Below are positions 3-52,422 of a DNA stretch of 64,000 nt, in pieces; the stretch's first letter is position 1; every line of letters begins with the position of its first letter. This stretch comes from Acidobacteriota bacterium (GTDB lineage: Bacteria; Acidobacteriota; Terriglobia; Terriglobales; Acidobacteriaceae). Location: contig QIAJ01000084.1 of NCBI GenBank assembly GCA_003225495.1, positions 30,953 to 94,952 of the forward strand. Direction: 5' to 3'. The notes under the pieces were generated by a model. That model saw only the letters and a list, made by a program, of their open reading frames with translations, ran no database searches and had not been told where the DNA came from. A program made the position numbers and the translations under genes.

Positions 3-1118
3 ATGCCTTCGCGTTACGCCCAATGGATGTACAACTGGGAAACTCGCCTCACGTCGGTCGACAACAACCGTGTGGTGCGTCCTCTGGATTGGGGAGTGGA
101 TTGGACCCGGCATTGGCCCGGCCGCAACGGCGGACCTTCGGGACAGTCCCCGCGCGAGCTTCTGGAATACTTCATTCGTTTCAACGACCACATCATTGAG
201 AACAGCGACGATTTCTACTCCTACCGTCCACCTACGGATTTCCGTCTTGAGCGCCGCGAAGTCCAGGTATTCAGCACGCGGGCAATTCCCGATCCAAAAT
301 TAGAAGCGAAGGTCCGCAACACGCACGCCGAGTTTTTGCGTTTCACCTCACCGGTGCAAACGCCCTATGCGGAGAATGACCTGGCCAACGCTCGGTGGTT
401 TCCAGTTCCCGGACACCGCGCGGTGGTCCTGCTCCCGCACTGGAATGCCGACGCGCTTGCCTACAACAGCCTGTGCCGCACACTGAATTGGATGGGGATC
501 TCCGTTCTCCGGTTGAGCCTGCCTCATCATGACATTCGGCGCCCCGCTGAGATCCATCGCGCCGACTACGCCGTCTCCGCCAACATCGGCCGCACTATGG
601 ACGCTATGCGCCAGGGCGTCATTGACGTTCGCTGCTGCCTCGACTGGCTCGAATCAAAGGGCTACAACCGCCTCGGCATTGTCGGGACCAGTCTCGGATC
701 CTGCTACGCGTTCATCGCCACAGCACACGATCCGCGCATCAGCGTCGCTGCGTTCAACCACGCTTCGACCTACGTTGCCGACGTAGTGTGGCATGGGCAA
801 TCCACCCGCCACGTCCGCGAGGGATTGGAACCTGCAATTCAACTCGACGATTTGCGCCGTGTCTGGCGCGCCGTCAGCCCGATGGTTTATTTCGACAAAT
901 TCTCGCGATGGCCGCGCAAGTCACTGATCATTTATGCGAAGTATGACCTGACCTTCCTCCCAGAGTTATCCAAGCGGGTGGTGGACGAATTCGCCCGCCA
1001 CAAACTCGACCACAGAGTCGTCGTCCTGCCCTGCGGCCACTACACCATGGGCGAGACCCCCTTCAAATACATGGACGGCTGGCAGCTGGCAAACTTCCTG
1101 CGCACCGCATTTGACTAG
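3..1118 (+). CDS. alpha/beta-hydrolase fold protein (esterase-like), function unknown
   Basis: 371-aa ORF with a GxSxG nucleophile elbow (LGIVGTSLGSCYAF) and late Asp/His candidates (YDLTF, PCGHYT). The ATG at 3 lies at the window edge, so the true start is uncertain. Confidence 0.6.
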   Translation: MPSRYAQWMYNWETRLTSVDNNRVVRPLDWGVDWTRHWPGRNGGPSGQSPRELLEYFIRFNDHIIENSDDFYSYRPPTDFRLERREVQVFSTRAIPDPKLEAKVRNTHAEFLRFTSPVQTPYAENDLANARWFPVPGHRAVVLLPHWNADALAYNSLCRTLNWMGISVLRLSLPHHDIRRPAEIHRADYAVSANIGRTMDAMRQGVIDVRCCLDWLESKGYNRLGIVGTSLGSCYAFIATAHDPRISVAAFNHASTYVADVVWHGQSTRHVREGLEPAIQLDDLRRVWRAVSPMVYFDKFSRWPRKSLIIYAKYDLTFLPELSKRVVDEFARHKLDHRVVVLPCGHYTMGETPFKYMDGWQLANFLRTAFD

Positions 1119-1122
1119 CTCG

Positions 1123-1150
1123 TGTAGGGACGGGTCTCTGACCCGTCCAG
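1123..1150. repeat. REP-like palindromic element, family A, copy 1 (TGTAGGGACGGGTCTCTGACCCGTCCAG)
   Basis: Perfect 8-bp stem GGACGGGT/ACCCGTCC with loop CTCTG at 1128-1148. It lies between two convergent genes. The 28-mer is identical to 48494-48521. Confidence 0.8.
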
Positions 1151-1809: not shown

Positions 1810-4599
1810 ATGATCGGCCAGACAATCTCCCACTATCGCATCGTCGAGAAACTCGGTGGCGGCGGGATGGGAATCGTTTACAAGGCCGAGGATCTCAAAC
1901 TCGATCGCTTCGTAGCCCTCAAGTTTCTGCCGAATGAACTGGCCACAGATGGGCAAGCTCTCAGCCGCTTCCAGCGCGAAGCTAAGGCCGCTTCTGCGTT
2001 GAACCATCCCAACATCTGCACCATCCACGAGATTGATGACCAGCATGGACAAACCTTTATTGCCATGGAGTTTCTGGATGGAATGACGCTGAAGCACCGC
2101 ATCGCGGGAAAGCCGCTGGACATGGAGACGGTTCTATCCCTCGCTATCGAGATTGCCGACGCGCTCGATGCTGCCCACGACGGTGGAATCGTTCACCGCG
2201 ACATCAAGCCGGCGAACCTTTTCGTGACCAAGCGCGGTCATGCCAAAATCTTGGACTTTGGATTGGCCAAGGTGACGCGGCGCAGCAGTCGGGCTGGCGA
2301 GGGCGCGACCGCGACCATTCAGGAGATCCTGCTCGTCGAAGACCACCTGACGAGTCCGGGTGCCATGCTGGGCACGGTTTCTTATATGTCGCCGGAGCAG
2401 GTGCGGGGCCGAGAATTGAATGCGCGCACGGACCTGTTTTCATTCGGGGCGGTGCTTTATGAGATGGCGACGGGCACGGTACCGTTTCGGGGCGAAGGTT
2501 CGGGCGACATCCTGGACGCGATCCTGCACAAGGCCCCAATAACTCCGGTGCGTCTGAATCCGGAAGTTCCCGTCGAGCTGGAGCGGATCATCCAGAAAGC
2601 TTTGGAGAAGGACCGCGATTTGCGCTACCAGCACGCATCCGAAATGCGATCCGATCTGAAGCGTCTGAAGCGGGACACAGAATCGGGCGGGTCGGTTGCG
2701 GAAGCCGCATCTGCTGGTTCTGCGGATATGGTTGAGAGTCGGGGCGCCGTTTCCACACATAGAGGCGCCGCAGCTTCTGCTGTTGGGTCGTCGTCTAGTT
2801 CGATTCTGATCGCCGAAGCTCGACGGCACAAGGGCATGCTGATCGGTACGGCTGCGTTGGTTTTGGTGCTGATAGTCGCGGCAGGGTTCGGCGTGTACAA
2901 ACTCCTAATTAAGAGCGTCCCCTCTATCGATACTCGCAACATCAGCATCCGGCCTCTGACCGAGCATGGAGAGGCAGCAGATTTTGCCAGCATCTCGCCC
3001 GACGGCAGATTGGTGGCCTATGGCAGGCGGGAAGGGCAACGCAGCCTACGCGTGAAACAGGTGGCCACGGGTAGCGAAGTGACAGTTGTGCCGCCTCAAA
3101 CCGGCTTCTTTGGCTCAGGCGCCACATTTAAGCCGGACGGGAATTATCTGTACTACACGCATGCCGACGCGGCCAATCCTAACATTGTCAACCTATATAG
3201 CGTACCGTCTTTGGGCGGTGCATCACGCCAGATCGTGGGCAACGTGGCTGGCGCGGCGGCATTCTCCGCTGATGGCAAGCGTATCGCTTACCGCCGCACA
3301 ATTCAGGAGAAAGGCGAAGATCAGATCTTGACCGCAAATGCCGATGGTGGGGGGGAACAAGTGATCTTCCGCCGCAACGTTGCGATTGGGGGTTTGCTCA
3401 CTGATCCATCCTGGTCGTCTGCTGCTGGTCTAATCGCAGTGGGCGCTTTTGACACGGGAAATAACAAGATCACATCGATTTTGGTACTCACACCGGAAGG
3501 CAACCTGGTCAAGAGTTTTCCGCTCCCCACGCTAATTACGTCGGTCGCATGGTTGCCCGATGGCTCCGGTCTGTTTTTTGTGGCCGGTGAAAAGTCGACC
3601 GGGCTGCGGTGGCAGATCTGGTTCCAACCATATTCTGACGGCGATGCTTTCAAGATTAGCAACGACTTGAGTCTTTATCACTCGCTTAGTGTCACAGCCG
3701 ACGGCAAATCATTCGTTAGTACTCAGGAGCGGCGAGCGGCAACGATTTATGTCGGCGATTCTCCTTCGGTACTGAACGACAAGATCGATTGGAAGCTCAC
3801 TCCCATTTCGACCGAACAAGCGACCGGCTATGATCTTTCATGGGCCTCCTCCGGTAGGCTCCTCCAACGAGATGTAGCGTTCCACCTTTACGCGACTGCC
3901 GCCGATGGTAGCAACCGGGTCCGCCTGCTGGAAAATGATGATCTTGTTTTTTCTGCAAATGCGTGCGGTTCCGGGGATACGGTCGTGGTCGGTAGAGTTC
4001 TTGAGGACAATGCCCCCAATGTCTGGCGGCTGAATGTGGGCACGGGTGAGTTGAAGCAGCTTACTTTTGGCAAGGACATAGAAAATGGTTCGTGCACCCC
4101 CGACGGAAAGTGGGTCATTTACAATGACGGTCAAGCGAAAGGTGGAGCCCGCATTTTCAAGGTCTCCATCGATGGCGGCACGCCTGTTGAACTGGCCCAC
4201 GGAACCCCGTTTTCCCCGCGAGTTTCGCCTAATGGTGAACTGATCGCGTACGGCAGGACCGAAGGACAGGGCGCCAGTGCAAAGTCGAAGATTGTGTTGC
4301 AAAACCTGGAAGACAGCGCAATCGTAAAGGAGATCGAGTTGCCCGCGACATACGACTGGGAGCAACTTGCGTGGACGCCGGACGGACACGCGCTCACGTT
4401 GGTGCACCATACGACAGGTGCCTTGCAGAATGTGTACATGCAGCCGCTGACCGGTGGCGCACGGGTGCAGCTAACACACTTCGATTCTGAGCCCTCTCTT
4501 GTGATGGCCTATGCTTGGTCGCCGGACGGCAGGAAGTTCGCAGTTACCCGCGCTCGCTCAAACGATAGCGATGTTGTCATGTTCAGCGGCTTCAAATAG
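1810..4599 (+). CDS. Ser/Thr protein kinase with one TM helix and a C-terminal TolB/PD40-like beta-propeller region
   Basis: Carries [32 protein letters not shown] and SPEQ motifs. TM helix is [20 protein letters not shown]. Repeated SPDG/SADG/TPDG..IAY blades follow. Confidence 0.9.
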
Positions 4600-47592: not shown

Positions 47593-47597
47593 GTTCG

Positions 47598-47641
47598 TGT
47601 GGTGACGGGTCTCTGACCCGTCCAGGCGGGCTCAAGCCCGC
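47598..47641. repeat. REP-like element, family A, copy 2 (two hairpins)
   Basis: TGTGGTGACGGGTCTCTGACCCGTCCAG differs from the family 28-mer at 2 positions. It is followed by GCGGGC-TCAA-GCCCGC. It lies between the nadC start and the valS stop. Confidence 0.8.
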
Positions 47642-47651
47642 AGCCCTGCTC

Positions 47652-50390
47652 CTAACCCAGCTCCTTCATCTTAGAAACCGTCTTCTCCCTCAACACTCTC
47701 AACTCTTCTGCTCTCCGCCTCAACCCTTCCACCACGCTCGCAGGCGCCTTCGCCAGAAATTGTTCATTGCCCAACTGCCGCTGCCCATTGGCAATTTCCT
47801 TCTCCATCTTCTCCAGTTCTTTAGTTAGACGCTCGCACTCGGCCGATACGTCAATCTTCTTTTCATATATCACGAGGACATCAAATCGCGCAGTGCTCCG
47901 CGCCCCTGCTCGATTCGCCAGCGACCTTTCAACGAACTTGATCGACTCCACGCCCGCTAGCCGCTCCACCGCGCTCCGGTTCTGCTCGATCATCGATCGG
48001 ATCTCCCGCTCCTGCGCGAACACCTCGACCGGCACCTTGACCTTCGGCTCCACCTTCAACTCTGCCCGCACATTCCGCACGCTCGCGATCAGATCCTTCA
48101 ACACCGCCATCTCCGTCTCCGCCCCGAGATCGATCTGCGATTCGTCCGCCGCCGGATACGCTGCCAGCGCAATCGATTTCACCGGAGGCTTGCCGTCGTA
48201 CATCGCCTGCCAGATCTCCTCCGTGATGAACGGCATCACCGGATGCAGCAGCCGCAACGAAGCCTCAAACAGTCCTGCCAGATTCTCGCAAGCCAGCTTC
48301 GCAGTCTCCGGACTCGCCGTCTCCATCAACCGCGGCTTGATCAATTCAATGTACCAATCGCAAAACTCGCCCCAGAAAACATCGTAAATCCGATTCGCCG
48401 CCTCATGAAACCGGTAAGTCCGAAGCGCCTCATTGACTTCCGCAGTCACCCTGTTGAATCGCGAAGCAATCCAACGATCCTCAAGAGCGTCCATGTAGGG
48501 ACGGGTCTCTGACCCGTCCAGGACAGGTCGAAGACCTGTCCCCAGCCGATCCACGTTCATGAACATGAACCGCGCCGCGTTCCATATCTTGTTAGCGAAC
48601 GCCCGATATCCATCGGTCCGGCTCTCATTGAATGCAATATCCGTCCCCGGCGCCGCCATCGCTGCCAGCGTAAACCGCGTCGCGTCCGTCCCGAACCGTT
48701 CAATAATTTCCAGCGGATCGATCACATTCCCCTTGGTCTTCGACATCTTCTGCCGATCTGCGTCCCGCACCAGTGCGTGGATATAAACCTCGCGGAACGG
48801 CACGCTGTCATTCTTCTTCTCCGCCCACCCGCTCGCCTTCTTGATCGCCGGATCCTGTTCGTGCCCCTCCATAAAATGGCAGCCAAACATGATCATGCGC
48901 GCCACCCAGAAGAATAGGATCTCGTAAGCCGTAATCAGCAGCGTAGTCGGATAAAAAACTTCCTGATCTCGCGTCTTTTCCGGCCACCCCAAAGTCGTAA
49001 ACGGCAGCAGCCCCGACGAAAACCACGTGTCGAGCACATCCGTGACCTGCTCCAGCTTCGCTCCTCCGCACTTCGGACACTTCACCGGGGCTTCGCGCGC
49101 GACCGTAACTTCCTTGCACGCATCGCAGGTCCACGCCGGAATCCGATGCCCCCACCACAACTGTCGCGACACGCACCAGTCATGGATGTTATTCATCCAG
49201 TTCAAATAAATCTGCCGGTAGTTATCCGGCGTGATCGTGATCTCGCCCGATTCCACCGCCGCAATCGCCTTCTTCGCCAGCGGCCCAATCTTCACGAACC
49301 ACTGCTCCGAAAGCCGAGGCTCCACAATCGTCCCCGACCGGTCGCACTTTCCGATCGCGATCGTGTAATCCTTCGTGCCGACCAGAAATCCCTGCGCCGT
49401 CAGATCCGCGACCACCCGCTCGCGCGCCGCAAATCTGTCCAACCCCGCATAAGCGCCCGCATTCGCGCTCATCTTGTTTTGCTCGTCAATGACTTCAATC
49501 TGCGGCAGATTGTGTCGCCGCCCCGCCTCAAAGTCATTCGGATCATGCGCCGGCGTCACCTTCACCGCGCCCGTCCCAAACTCAGGCTGCGCCAGTTCAT
49601 CCGCGATGATCGGAATCTCGCGATTCATCAGCGGCAGCAGCACCTTCTTCCCATGCAGATGCAGATACCGCTCGTCCCGCGGATTCAGCGCCACCGCCGT
49701 ATCTCCCAGCATCGTCTCCGGACGCGTAGTAGCCACGGTAATAAACTCGCTACTCCCCACCACCGGATACCGAATCTCATACAACTTCCCCTGCACATCC
49801 TCGTGCTTCACCTCGAGATCCGAGATCGCCGTCCCGCAATCGGCGCACCAGTTCACGATGTACTTCCCGCGATAAATCAACCCCTGTTCATACAGCCGGA
49901 CAAATACCTCCCGCACCGCCCGCGAAAGGTTCTCGTCCATCGTGAAGTACTCGCGCTCCCAATCAACGGACGCGCCCAGCCGCTTCATCTGATCGAGAAT
50001 CGCCCCGCCATAAAGCTTCTTCCACTCCCACACCCGCTCCACAAACTTCTCGCGCCCCATCTCCAGCCGCGACTTGCCCTCGCTGCGCAGCTGCCGATCC
50101 ACCATCATCTGCGTAGCGATCCCCGCATGATCCGTTCCCGGCAGCCACAAAGTGAGAAACCCCCGCATGCGATGCCAGCGCACGAGGATATCCATCTGCG
50201 TCTGGTTAAGCATGTGCCCCATGTGCAGCCGCCCCGTCACATTCGGAGGAGGCAAAAGCAAGGTGAACACCGGCCGAGTGTCACCAGCCGGAGGTGTATC
50301 CACATGAAACAACTTCTCGCGCACCCAGTACTCGGCCCAGCGCGCTTCAATCGCGCCCGGCTCATAAGATTTTGGCAATTCGTGCGGCAT
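47652..50390 (-). CDS. valS: valine--tRNA ligase
   Basis: Start at MPHELPKSYEPGAIEARW. HIGH-type motif (LHMGHMLN), KMSKT and a C-terminal coiled coil. 912 aa. Confidence 0.96.
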   Translation of the reverse strand: MPHELPKSYEPGAIEARWAEYWVREKLFHVDTPPAGDTRPVFTLLLPPPNVTGRLHMGHMLNQTQMDILVRWHRMRGFLTLWLPGTDHAGIATQMMVDRQLRSEGKSRLEMGREKFVERVWEWKKLYGGAILDQMKRLGASVDWEREYFTMDENLSRAVREVFVRLYEQGLIYRGKYIVNWCADCGTAISDLEVKHEDVQGKLYEIRYPVVGSSEFITVATTRPETMLGDTAVALNPRDERYLHLHGKKVLLPLMNREIPIIADELAQPEFGTGAVKVTPAHDPNDFEAGRRHNLPQIEVIDEQNKMSANAGAYAGLDRFAARERVVADLTAQGFLVGTKDYTIAIGKCDRSGTIVEPRLSEQWFVKIGPLAKKAIAAVESGEITITPDNYRQIYLNWMNNIHDWCVSRQLWWGHRIPAWTCDACKEVTVAREAPVKCPKCGGAKLEQVTDVLDTWFSSGLLPFTTLGWPEKTRDQEVFYPTTLLITAYEILFFWVARMIMFGCHFMEGHEQDPAIKKASGWAEKKNDSVPFREVYIHALVRDADRQKMSKTKGNVIDPLEIIERFGTDATRFTLAAMAAPGTDIAFNESRTDGYRAFANKIWNAARFMFMNVDRLGTGLRPVLDGSETRPYMDALEDRWIASRFNRVTAEVNEALRTYRFHEAANRIYDVFWGEFCDWYIELIKPRLMETASPETAKLACENLAGLFEASLRLLHPVMPFITEEIWQAMYDGKPPVKSIALAAYPAADESQIDLGAETEMAVLKDLIASVRNVRAELKVEPKVKVPVEVFAQEREIRSMIEQNRSAVERLAGVESIKFVERSLANRAGARSTARFDVLVIYEKKIDVSAECERLTKELEKMEKEIANGQRQLGNEQFLAKAPASVVEGLRRRAEELRVLREKTVSKMKELG
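48494..48541. repeat. REP-like element, family A, copy 3, inside the valS coding sequence
   Basis: Identical 28-mer plus a second perfect hairpin GGACAGGTC-GAA-GACCTGTCC. On the gene strand it encodes GTGLRPVLDGSETRPY in frame. Confidence 0.85.
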
Positions 50391-50405
50391 AGTTTGTCTG
50401 TGTGG

Positions 50406-50438
50406 AACCGGATCTCTGACCCGGTTGGCCTGGCCAAC
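50406..50438. repeat. degenerate family-A-like element in the valS 5' leader
   Basis: GGAACCGGATCTCTGACCCGGTTGG keeps the TCTCTGACCC core, then GTTGG-CCTGG-CCAAC. It lies 16 nt upstream of the valS ATG. Confidence 0.45.
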
Positions 50439-50787
50439 ACCCGGCTGAACAGGCGGACGAGAGACACCGCCAAGCCGTCCCACCGCGCAACCCCGGTAGC
50501 ATCGTCAGCAAAGGGATGAGCCTTCGATCTTACAGGCCCAAGAAAACAGAGGTCAAACTTAGCGCGGGAAGAGGGAAAGTGGGCATCTCAGAGCGCTTGA
50601 TTAAGTAGTAAACATAACTTCGTGCGCTGCTGGACGCTGGCGCGCGCGTGGGAGTTGAGTTCCAGTTGAGCGAGCGTGAACGTTGACGTTGGGGTGTGTT
50701 CGAGTTGACTTCGCGTTAACTTCACGCCAAGCGCCAGCACCGATTCCGTTGAAGTGGGATATTGGATCGTAGCCGAACTCCTCTCAG

Positions 50788-51972: not shown

Positions 51973-52422
51973 CTACCAATCGAACCAGCTCCAACCGGTA
52001 CCTCTATTGATGCCGCCCGCCGCCGGTCTAGCCTTATCCGGTAGACATATCTCATAGTAGCCGCTCGGCACAGCTCCACTTGATTGATCCTGTTTATATC
52101 GGTCACCGTTCCAATACGCATTTTGAGTCCAATTGTTAACAGAAGCAGGTCCATTGGATGTCTGACTTCCCACAAAATTCCAACTAGAGCCAGTACTCGT
52201 CTCGATTCCCATGTGAGTCCCCCCGGGTGTTACGAATTGAACTATATTTCCCGGTTGCACATCATTTGGCGAAATCGAAGAAAATCTTGGAGTATTGCCG
52301 AGCTGTGTCGCTCCAACCCATGGAATGTTTATGCCAGGCGGGTGGCCCAGGTAACAACGGGTGCCCCACGTTTCGTTTTTTGAAACGTGGGTGCTGACAA
52401 CGGAAATGTTGCTGCGTTCCAT
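51973..52422 (-). CDS. hypothetical protein, weak CHAP/NlpC-P60-like Cys...His pattern
   Basis: ..WGTRCYLG.. followed about 45 aa later by ..PGNIVQFVTPGGTHMGIE.., resembling the GD-IV-F...HVGI strand of papain-like amidases. This is a by-eye impression only. Confidence 0.3.
   Translation of the reverse strand: MERSNISVVSTHVSKNETWGTRCYLGHPPGINIPWVGATQLGNTPRFSSISPNDVQPGNIVQFVTPGGTHMGIETSTGSSWNFVGSQTSNGPASVNNWTQNAYWNGDRYKQDQSSGAVPSGYYEICLPDKARPAAGGINRGTGWSWFDW

What the first reader, a model, noticed from the sequence alone, without database searches (positions are those of the whole stretch)
48494..48541. REP-like double hairpin embedded in-frame inside the essential valS gene
The 28-mer TGTAGGGACGGGTCTCTGACCCGTCCAG at 48494-48521 is identical to the intergenic copy at 1123-1150. 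It differs at 2 positions from the copy at 47598-47625.

Inside valS it is followed immediately by a second perfect hairpin, GGACAGGTC-GAA-GACCTGTCC. On the valS strand the 48 nt read GTGLRPVLDGSETRPY with no stop.

The insertion sits in the segment between ..NKIWNAARFMFMN.. and ..DRWIASRF.., which is a variable linker in ValRS as far as I recall from E. coli. This looks like a palindromic intergenic element that inserted into, and is tolerated by, a coding region. Such insertions are uncommon. It also places two stable hairpins in the mRNA of an aminoacyl-tRNA synthetase.
Basis: partly seen in the sequence, partly recalled or inferred. Interest (0 to 1): 0.65.

Follow-up and report, generated by a model that had tools for sequence, protein, structure and literature searches.

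The report
Mobile REP palindromes translated inside ValRS
A 48-base pair of REP palindromes, small repeats that normally lie between genes and are moved by a RAYT transposase, sits in frame in a surface loop of the essential valyl-tRNA synthetase gene; this kind of event is already known, but here the same loop carries such palindromes in most related soil Acidobacteria.

Summary
The 28-mer at 48494-48521 is a genuine GTAG-tagged REP. It has four copies in the window. Its 25-nt core recurs exactly 101 times in at least 42 Terriglobia species genomes. In one of them (L004) inverted copies flank a REP-associated tyrosine transposase (RAYT) gene.

With the adjoining hairpin it forms an inverted REP doublet. 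It is translated as GTGLRPVLDGSETRPY in the loop between two long helices at the start of the ValRS anticodon-binding region.

The insertion is not private to this genome. 92 of 120 orthologues at 81-90% identity encode GLRP at the same spot. Perfect hairpins are 45 times denser in this linker than in the rest of valS. Synonymous third-codon positions covary to keep the stem. The embedded hairpin tends to match the REP type next to valS in the same genome.

The site is therefore old and repeatedly rewritten. I found no sign of a function specific to the mRNA strand.

In-frame intragenic REPs are already described, including in tRNA synthetase genes and as Rickettsia RPEs. This is a new member of a known kind, notable for its persistence across a whole clade.

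The parts
48494..48521 (+). REP unit 'B': GTAG tag plus hairpin GGACGGGTC-TCT-GACCCGTCC. It is antisense to valS and is translated on the minus strand as (L)DGSETRPY.
   Evidence: Exact copy of the intergenic REP at 1123-1150. Perfect 9-bp stem. Its 25-nt core is found 101 times in Terriglobia MAG loci.
48521..48541 (+). REP unit 'A': hairpin GGACAGGTC-GAA-GACCTGTCC, translated on the minus strand as GTGLRPV. It is the inverted partner of unit B and has no GTAG tag in this genome.
   Evidence: Intergenic doublets in L017, L068 and L074 have the same layout (REP + GCCGGGTC-GAA/AAA-GACCCGGC + GCTACAC). L097 and L098 have GTGTAGG at this end. The two units can also pair with each other into one long hairpin (-38 kcal/mol, z = -3.47).
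47652..50390 (-). valS (valine-tRNA ligase), 912 aa. The REP-coded residues are G617-Y632.
   Evidence: 100% identical to P0001 and 81-90% identical to proteins that their sources name valyl-tRNA synthetase. Matches T. thermophilus ValRS 1GAX at E = 2e-40.
47598..47641 (+). Intergenic REP doublet: a REP with a GTGG tag (2 mismatches to the 28-mer) plus hairpin GCGGGC-TCAA-GCCCGC. It fills most of the 59-nt spacer between the valS stop and the ATG of the next gene (47592).
   Evidence: REP-type hairpins lie just downstream of valS in many orthologous loci.
50400..50426 (+). REP variant GTGTGG-AACCGGATC-TCT-GACCCGGTT in the valS leader. It ends 9 nt upstream of the valS ATG.
1123..1150 (+). Intergenic REP copy identical to the valS copy, 4 nt after a TAG stop codon (1116-1118).
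   Evidence: The orthologous REP lies at the same gene end in L068.

Best explanation
The 48 nt are an inverted doublet (REPIN-like) of a GTAG-tagged REP family native to Terriglobia. In this lineage the family is associated with a RAYT transposase.

The doublet lies in frame and in a stop-free reading frame, in the loop that joins the last helix before the anticodon-binding domain of ValRS to the first helix of that domain. It is therefore transcribed and translated as 16 loop residues, and it is tolerated because the loop is variable and sits between two long helices.

The site was first occupied before a large Terriglobales clade radiated. Since then the hairpins have been replaced or homogenised repeatedly, so each genome's valS tends to carry that genome's own REP type. 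The mechanism is inferred: either RAYT-mediated re-insertion next to an existing REP, or gene conversion between REP copies.

The palindrome is kept at the DNA level by REP dynamics. It most likely gives ValRS no new function.

Shown: identity as a REP, the reading frame, the loop position, clade-wide occupancy, covariation, and matching to the local REP type.

Inferred: translation of the segment, neutrality, and the mechanism of turnover.
For: Evidence that it is a REP:
- 0 chance matches are expected for the 28-mer.
- The 25-nt core occurs 101 times in 96 stretches from at least 42 Terriglobia species genomes (the MAG count covers the 80 loci whose titles were shown), mostly right after stop codons and followed by a second hairpin.
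- In L004 an ORF scoring 92.2 bits on NCBIfam NF047646, REP-associated tyrosine transposase (cut-off 80), is flanked by inverted copies of this REP.
- In soil metagenomes the word depth over 48492-48523 is above 1000, against 5-6 for the flanks.

Evidence on the loop:
- The AF2 model of the 219-aa fragment has pLDDT 93.8. REP-coded residues 90-105 lie in the only long coil (90-108), between helices 62-89 and 109-130, where confidence is lowest (73-79).
- T. thermophilus ValRS aligns with an 11-residue gap here.
- The median linker in representatives at 45-78% identity is 23 aa, against 29 here.

Evidence that the site is old:
- GLRP is present in 92/120 orthologous proteins and 41/75 metagenome loci.
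- L119 has a 22-aa hairpin-free linker that shares the flank CGGCTGGGG with the window.

Evidence for constraint at the nucleic-acid level:
- Perfect hairpins of 8 bp or more occur at 4.37/kb in the linker and 0.098/kb in the rest of valS.
- REP tags occur at 4.2/kb against 0.51/kb.
- Helix A has a covariation score of 0.179, against 0.110 +/- 0.015 for shuffles (0/500) and at most 0.085 for slid controls.
- The Gly third base pairs with the Arg third base as C-G 23, A-U 5 and U-A 5.

Evidence for turnover:
- The linker hairpin shares an 11-mer or longer with the 250 nt downstream of valS on the same contig in 8 of 69 loci. Random pairing predicts 2.6 (permutation p = 0.0018), although the REP sequences differ between genomes.

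Other in-frame copies of the same REP lie in MutS2 (L096), LpxB (L083) and a xanthine-dehydrogenase-type subunit (L011).
Against: - No RAYT gene was found in the 64-kb window, so the association is shown only in a relative.
- Translation of the segment is not shown directly. No RNA or proteome data were available, because all the runs found were DNA contigs.
- The covariation test is inflated by the relatedness of the sequences. It also cannot tell in-place compensatory change from replacement by a different REP.
- The tree from 206 flanking residues is too weak to count independent events.
- 25% of helix-A cells are unpaired and several lineages have lost the hairpin. Maintenance is therefore leaky.
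- The own-genome matching rests on 8 loci.
Confidence: 0.8

Rival explanations
1. The hairpins have been co-opted as a cis-acting element of valS expression and are kept by selection on the mRNA. Candidate roles are a translational pause between the catalytic and anticodon-binding domains, an RNase processing or stability site, or an attenuator.
For: - Synonymous-site covariation keeps helix A.
- Hairpins persist across a large clade.
- valS in the window also has a REP hairpin 9 nt upstream of its ATG and a doublet just after its stop.
- The doublet folds stably as RNA (-38 kcal/mol, z = -3.47).
Against: - There is no excess of sense-strand G.U over A.C in helix A (23 vs 29, p = 0.49). This fits a double-stranded DNA palindrome better than a sense RNA.
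- The hairpin sequence follows each genome's REP family rather than a valS-specific consensus.
- The hairpins have decayed or are absent in several lineages (L119, L118, L135, L142, L176).
- No U-run follows either hairpin.
Confidence: 0.1
2. The inserted residues, especially the conserved P-G-L-R-P, give ValRS a selected protein-level property such as tRNA contact, oligomerisation or partner binding. On this view the palindrome is incidental.
For: GLRP is conserved in 92/120 close orthologues while the rest of the linker is hypervariable.
Against: - A palindrome CCGGGNC-NNN-GNCCCGG read in this frame necessarily spells P-G-x-R-P-G, so DNA conservation alone explains the peptide conservation.
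- Covariation is seen at synonymous positions.
- The remainder of the insert differs completely between orthologues at similar identity levels.
- The model places the insert in a coil of lowered confidence.
- Lineages without it exist.
Confidence: 0.07
3. The match is a chance palindrome, or an assembly chimera that placed a repeat inside valS.
For: Repeats are a known source of mis-assembly in metagenomes.
Against: - 0 of 100 shuffles give any match.
- The frame is intact across the insert.
- Two independent soil-metagenome contigs carry the same junctions.
- 74 independently assembled orthologous loci show the same phenomenon.
Confidence: 0.01

Closest known systems
Intragenic GTAG/CGTC REPs surveyed by Di Nocera, De Gregorio and Rocco 2013 (PMC3733652)
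   Same: Both are GTAG-tagged REP monomers or dimers lying wholly inside long ORFs and encoding about 7-30 residues. tRNA synthetase genes are among the targets: GlyRS beta in X. oryzae and E. litoralis, and IleRS in E. litoralis. The REPs there are also associated with RAYT genes.
   Different: ValRS and Terriglobia do not appear among the intragenic cases found in that paper's text or its held supplements. The paper reports single-genome cases. It does not report one site occupied across a whole clade, with hairpins that change along with each genome's REP type.
Rickettsia palindromic elements (RPE; Ogata et al. 2000, as cited in PMC3733652)
   Same: Both are palindromic repeats inserted in frame into genes for functional, often essential, proteins, and both are tolerated in the protein.
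   Different: From my own knowledge, the classic RPE-1 type is longer (about 100-150 bp). RPEs belong to unrelated sequence families in an obligate intracellular alphaproteobacterium. The element here is a 48-nt RAYT-type REP doublet in free-living soil Acidobacteria.
REPIN-RAYT systems (Bertels and Rainey; PMC3116915, PMC3337134)
   Same: Both have two inverted REPs able to form one long hairpin. Both have a RAYT flanked by the REPs. The exact REP core is shared by at least 42 species-level genomes, which fits vertical inheritance.
   Different: REPINs are described as extragenic, with a spacer between the two REPs. Here the two units abut (they share one base), lie inside a coding sequence, and the left unit has lost its GTAG tag in this genome.
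E. coli REP/BIME elements
   Same: Both are GC-rich imperfect palindromes of 20-40 bp, clustered in pairs at the 3' ends of genes, like the copies at 1123 and 47598.
   Different: The sequence family is different. E. coli REPs are extragenic by definition.

Membership tests
GTAG-type REP (RAYT-associated repetitive palindrome) | Short (20-40 bp) GC-rich imperfect palindrome | tested here: met
   The 28-mer has a perfect 9-bp stem and a 3-nt loop.
GTAG-type REP (RAYT-associated repetitive palindrome) | Conserved GTAG tetranucleotide at one end of the palindrome | tested here: met
   TGTAGG precedes the stem at 48494 and 1123. The variant GTGG occurs at 47598 and 50400. GTGTAGG is conserved in the 101 MAG copies.
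GTAG-type REP (RAYT-associated repetitive palindrome) | Many dispersed copies, predominantly extragenic and near the 3' ends of genes | tested here: met
   There are 4 copies in the window, 3 of them intergenic. Of the 101 MAG copies, only 3 lie inside verified genes. Metagenome word depth is more than 200-fold above the flanks. The copy number in this organism's own genome could not be counted.
GTAG-type REP (RAYT-associated repetitive palindrome) | A RAYT (Y1 HUH transposase) gene flanked by inverted copies of the same REP in the lineage | tested here: met
   L004 ORF: NF047646 at 92.2 bits (cut-off 80); Pfam Y1_Tnp at 22.6 bits (cut-off 23); flanked by inverted REPs. No RAYT was found within the 64-kb window itself.
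GTAG-type REP (RAYT-associated repetitive palindrome) | Mobilisation or cleavage by the RAYT | not testable with these tools
   This needs biochemistry or a mobilome experiment.
REPIN (inverted REP doublet) | Two REPs in inverted orientation that can fold into one long hairpin | tested here: met
   The MFE structure pairs unit A with unit B (-38 kcal/mol, z = -3.47). L097 and L098 have the tags GTGTAGG...CCCCACA at both ends. In the window the left unit lacks the tag.
Rickettsia palindromic elements (RPE) | In-frame insertion in protein-coding genes | tested here: met
   for valS; for MutS2, LpxB and XDH.
Rickettsia palindromic elements (RPE) | Membership of the RPE sequence families of Rickettsia | not tested
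   No RPE sequence was compared. The host phylum and the element length differ, so the element behaves like an RPE but I do not file it as one.
Intrinsic terminator / attenuator | GC-rich hairpin followed by a U-run on the transcribed strand | tested here: not met
   On the valS strand the hairpins are followed by CUACAUGGACGC, with no U-run.

The most novel reading that the evidence does not exclude
The ValRS linker is a selected REP site rather than a merely tolerated one. On this reading the host has co-opted the embedded palindrome. It might act as a pause or processing signal between the two halves of an essential synthetase, or as a DNA-level site bound by a REP-recognising protein. Selection would then explain why it has stayed occupied across Terriglobales while its sequence co-evolves with each genome's RAYT/REP system.
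Probability: 0.12. Interest if true: 0.75.

Novelty: new member of a known kind. Interest (0 to 1): 0.5.

Why it matters
It gives a clean, datable natural example of a mobile palindrome living inside an essential gene. One protein loop has been written and rewritten by a genome's own REP population across a whole bacterial order.

This makes two open questions about REP/REPIN biology testable:
- how REP sites persist at orthologous positions;
- whether copies are homogenised by re-insertion or by gene conversion.

Here the reading frame provides a built-in filter and the synonymous sites provide a built-in neutral control.

There are also two practical consequences. It flags a hypervariable, REP-coded segment that can mislead ValRS alignments and phylogenies of Acidobacteriota. 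It also shows that "repetitive extragenic" elements should not be masked blindly in gene calling for this phylum.

Tried and rejected
- The general inverted-repeat finder on the whole window returned mostly overlapping palindromes and missed the elements. I replaced it with my own hairpin scan.
- A full-length AF2 model from 42 close orthologues was too poor to use (mean pLDDT 54). I replaced it with a 219-aa fragment model built on 88 diverse sequences.
- The neighbour-joining tree from 206 flanking residues could not resolve whether hairpin types arose once or many times.
- A motif scan for RAYT found none in the window and only one in the fetched loci.
- A search for RNA runs gave only DNA metagenome contigs, so expression of the segment could not be checked.
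- The strand-asymmetry test (G.U vs A.C) gave no support for an mRNA-specific structure.
- Most long stop-free stretches across MAG REP copies were antisense or upstream artefacts. For example, in L023 the REP lies before the real start of a TatD-like gene. Only 3 were accepted as genic.
- A literature search for palindromic elements in valyl-tRNA synthetase found nothing.
Full report
**Observation**

The 28-mer TGTAGGGACGGGTCTCTGACCCGTCCAG is present exactly at 1123-1150 and 48494-48521, and with two mismatches at 47598-47625. None of 100 dinucleotide-preserving shuffles gave any match.

It contains a perfect 9-bp stem with a 3-nt loop. It is followed at once (sharing one base) by a second perfect 9-bp hairpin, GGACAGGTC-GAA-GACCTGTCC, at 48521-48541. 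The second stem is the first one with a compensatory G>A/C>T change.

The surrounding ORF, 47652-50483 on the minus strand, is valS. Its likely start is the ATG at 50390, which gives 912 aa identical to P0001. It is 81-90% identical to 119 proteins, many of which their sources name valyl-tRNA synthetase.

On that strand the 48 nt read GTGLRPVLDGSETRPY (residues 617-632), between NKIWNAARFMFMN and DRWIASRF.

Contigs from two unrelated soil metagenomes cover 48300-48741 with a single mismatch, so the junctions are real.

**What the repeat is**

The 25-nt core GTAGGGACGGGTCTCTGACCCGTCC occurs in 96 stretches of the species-representative genome collection. All of them are Terriglobia or Acidobacteriota MAGs. 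At least 42 different MAGs appear among the first 80 loci, with up to 10 exact copies in one MAG.

The 101 copies share the 5' tag GTGTAGG. Typically they sit just after a stop codon and are followed by a second hairpin, most often GCCGAGC-GAAG-GCTCGGC and then a T-rich tract.

In L017, L068 and L074 the second hairpin is GCCGGGTC-GAA/AAA-GACCCGGC followed by GCTACAC. That is an inverted doublet with the tag at both ends, the same layout as in valS.

In L004 an ORF with an HxH motif (DHAHMV) and the motif NNPVRAGLV scores 92.2 bits on NCBIfam NF047646, REP-associated tyrosine transposase (cut-off 80). It scores 22.6 bits on Pfam Y1_Tnp (cut-off 23). Inverted copies of this very REP flank it, and one of them overlaps its 3' end.

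This is the defining arrangement of a REP-RAYT system. The element is therefore a GTAG-type REP, not merely REP-like.

In the soil metagenomes the word depth over 48492-48523 exceeds 1000, against 5-6 for the valS flanks. Many different sequences adjoin it, which confirms that it is a dispersed repeat.

The window itself holds four copies, all in the same orientation:
- 1123, four bases after a stop codon;
- 47598, in the 59-nt spacer after valS, with a second hairpin at 47626-47641;
- 48494, inside valS;
- 50400-50426, a variant ending 9 nt before the valS ATG.

**Where it sits in the protein**

The T. thermophilus ValRS structure 1GAX aligns over the region at E = 2e-40, with an 11-residue gap at the insert.

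A full-length AF2 model was unusable (pLDDT 54). A model of the 219-residue fragment built on 88 diverse sequences is confident (pLDDT 93.8, pTM 0.89).

In that model the REP-coded residues, fragment positions 90-105, lie in the only long coil (90-108), between helices 62-89 and 109-130. Confidence there is the lowest in the model (73-79).

In representatives at 45-78% identity the same linker has a median of 23 residues and no GLRP motif, except in the closest representative with the linker captured. The window has 29 residues.

**The site is old and is a hot spot**

Of 120 orthologues at 81-90% identity, 92 have GLRP at the same position and 104 have a close variant. It is followed by a hypervariable stretch, and total linker length ranges from 20 to 44 aa.

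I fetched the DNA of 80 orthologous metagenome loci and extracted the linker from 74 of them plus the window. Almost all carry one to three GC-rich hairpins there, from several different sequence families:
- GGCGGACA-AGAG-TGTCCGCC, coding GGQECPPH;
- GGACAGCCG-AGGG-CGGCTGTCC, coding RTAEGGCPH;
- GGGACGGAC-GGGGA-GTCCGTCCC, coding GDGRGVRPS;
- CCGGGTC-AGA-GACCCGG, coding GSETRP.

These are commonly followed by CCCACA or CCTACA, the complement of the GTGG/GTAG tag.

Perfect hairpins of 8 bp or more occur at 4.37 per kb in the linker and 0.098 per kb in the rest of valS, a 45-fold difference. REP tags occur at 4.2 against 0.51 per kb.

L119 has a 22-aa linker without any hairpin and shares the left flank CGGCTGGGG with the window. 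It looks like an unoccupied site.

The closest relatives with DNA, L097 and L098, carry a complete doublet with tags at both ends: GTGTAGG...CCCCACA. Their stems differ from the window's by paired changes, GACGGGTC/GACCCGTC against GCCGGGTC/GACCCGGC. There a non-synonymous change (Asp to Ala) is matched by a synonymous change in Arg.

**What is conserved is the palindrome**

The peptide P-G-L-R-P-G is what the palindrome CCGGGNC-NNN-GNCCCGG spells in this frame. In it, the third base of the Gly codon pairs with the third base of the Arg codon.

Across 61 sequences (55 distinct) this pair is C-G 23, A-U 5, U-A 5 and U-G 3 times.

For the whole helix:
- 75.2% of cells are paired, against 70.4 +/- 1.2 for shuffles.
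- 28 cells have changes on both sides, against 15.5 +/- 3.2.
- The covariation score is 0.179, against 0.110 +/- 0.015.
- 0 of 500 shuffles reach the observed value on each of these three measures.
- All slid controls score 0.085 or less.

Relatedness inflates such tests, so I treat this as good but not conclusive evidence.

Sense-strand G.U pairs are not more frequent than A.C (23 vs 29, p = 0.49). The constraint therefore looks like that on a DNA palindrome, not on an mRNA structure.

One quarter of the cells are unpaired and some lineages have lost the hairpin. Maintenance is leaky.

**The embedded hairpin follows the genome's own REPs**

In the window the valS copy is identical to the intergenic copy at 1123.

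In L117, L126, L150, L151, L167, L174 and L123/L125 the valS hairpin matches a REP lying just downstream of valS on the same contig, although the sequence differs from the window's REP.

Own-contig matches of 11 nt or more occur in 8 of 69 non-redundant loci. Random pairing predicts 2.6 (permutation p = 0.0018).

Together with the multiple families and the variable number of units, this points to repeated replacement or homogenisation at one site. Whether that happens by RAYT-mediated insertion next to an existing REP or by gene conversion is inference. The short-fragment tree could not count events.

**Other genes**

Among the 101 MAG copies, three lie in frame inside long conserved genes:
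- MutS2 in L096 (MutS_V and Smr domains downstream of the insert);
- LpxB in L083 (the Pfam match resumes at profile position 29, after the insert);
- a molybdopterin-binding xanthine-dehydrogenase-type subunit in L011 (the MoCoBD_2 match spans the insert).

By my own translation of the 28-mer, four of its six reading frames are open. valS uses LDGSETRPY, LpxB uses TGQRPVPT, and MutS2 and XDH use CRDGSLTRP.

**Comparison with what is known**

Di Nocera and colleagues (PMC3733652) defined GTAG-tagged REPs and linked them to RAYTs. They listed REPs lying wholly inside ORFs in several species, including GlyRS beta and IleRS genes, and they noted the parallel with Rickettsia RPEs.

Bertels and Rainey described REP doublets (REPINs) as vertically inherited partners of single-copy RAYTs.

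The valS element meets every sequence-level criterion of a GTAG REP, and of a REPIN-like doublet. The two units can fold into a single long hairpin (-38 kcal/mol, z = -3.47). It behaves like an RPE but is not one of that family.

A search for palindromic elements in valyl-tRNA synthetase found nothing.

**Verdict**

The kind of event is already known.

What is new is the host (Terriglobia), the gene (valS), and the evidence that one loop of an essential enzyme has stayed a REP site across a large clade while its sequence was rewritten.

A selected regulatory role for the hairpins is not excluded, but nothing I tested favours it.

Noticed in passing
window 50400-50426 (and 50424-50438): A REP variant (GTGTGG-AACCGGATC-TCT-GACCCGGTT) ends 9 nt upstream of the valS start codon and overlaps a second small palindrome, GTTGGCC-A-GGCCAAC. 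Its one imperfect stem pair is G.U on the valS mRNA strand and A.C on the other strand. valS therefore has REPs in its leader, in its coding sequence and after its stop codon.
   Followed up: partly
window 47593-47651; L102, L105, L115, L117, L126, L134, L138, L150, L151, L156, L160, L165, L167, L170, L174 just after the valS stop: The short spacer between valS and the next gene (which starts MDWNS...) is also a conserved REP site. Many orthologous loci carry one to three REP hairpins there, sometimes long inverted pairs (for example L156 at -76 kcal/mol).
   Followed up: partly
L113, L114, L117, L118, L126, L128, L135, L137, L150, L164 between the valS stop and the next gene: Runs of a 7-nt unit (AACTGGC / CACTGAC / AACTGAC) lie directly upstream of the downstream gene's ATGGACTGG start in many orthologous loci. 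They are absent from the window.
   Followed up: no
L123/L125, L158, L131, L149 linkers; proteins P0024, P0045, P0081: A different repeat lies in frame in the same ValRS linker in some lineages. It codes peptides such as LRLRSGQAP, SLRAGE, QAQGRLS or FGSAQGELRP (DNA ...CTTCGACTCCGCTCAGGGCAGGCTC...). This loop therefore accepts more than one family of small repeats.
   Followed up: no
L096 ~4610, L083 ~1869, L011 ~5946: The same REP lies in frame inside MutS2, LpxB (with several units in a row) and a molybdopterin-binding dehydrogenase subunit in other Terriglobia MAGs.
   Followed up: yes
L004 2488-2976: A RAYT gene (NF047646) is flanked by inverted REPs. The downstream REP overlaps the last codons of the transposase gene.
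   Followed up: yes
L065 ~3225-3330; L086 2207-2270; L032 5164 and 5600; L047, L051: Other arrangements of the same REP occur. There are direct tandem arrays with spacers of about 14 nt (L065, L086). There are also single long palindromes with the tag on both sides, GTGTAGGGACGGGTCTCTGACCCGTCCCTACAC (L032, L047, L051).
   Followed up: no
window 52365-52391: A perfect 10-bp hairpin, CCCACGTTTC-GTTTTTT-GAAACGTGGG, is the longest perfect hairpin in the window. It is unrelated to the REP family and might be a terminator.
   Followed up: no
window 1090-1150 vs L068 2224-2290: The gene end and REP at 1123 are orthologous to those in JACQDD010000055.1 (Acidobacteriales MAG from groundwater). There the REP is followed by a complete second unit and a CCACAC tag that the window lacks. 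This MAG is probably a close relative of the source organism.
   Followed up: partly
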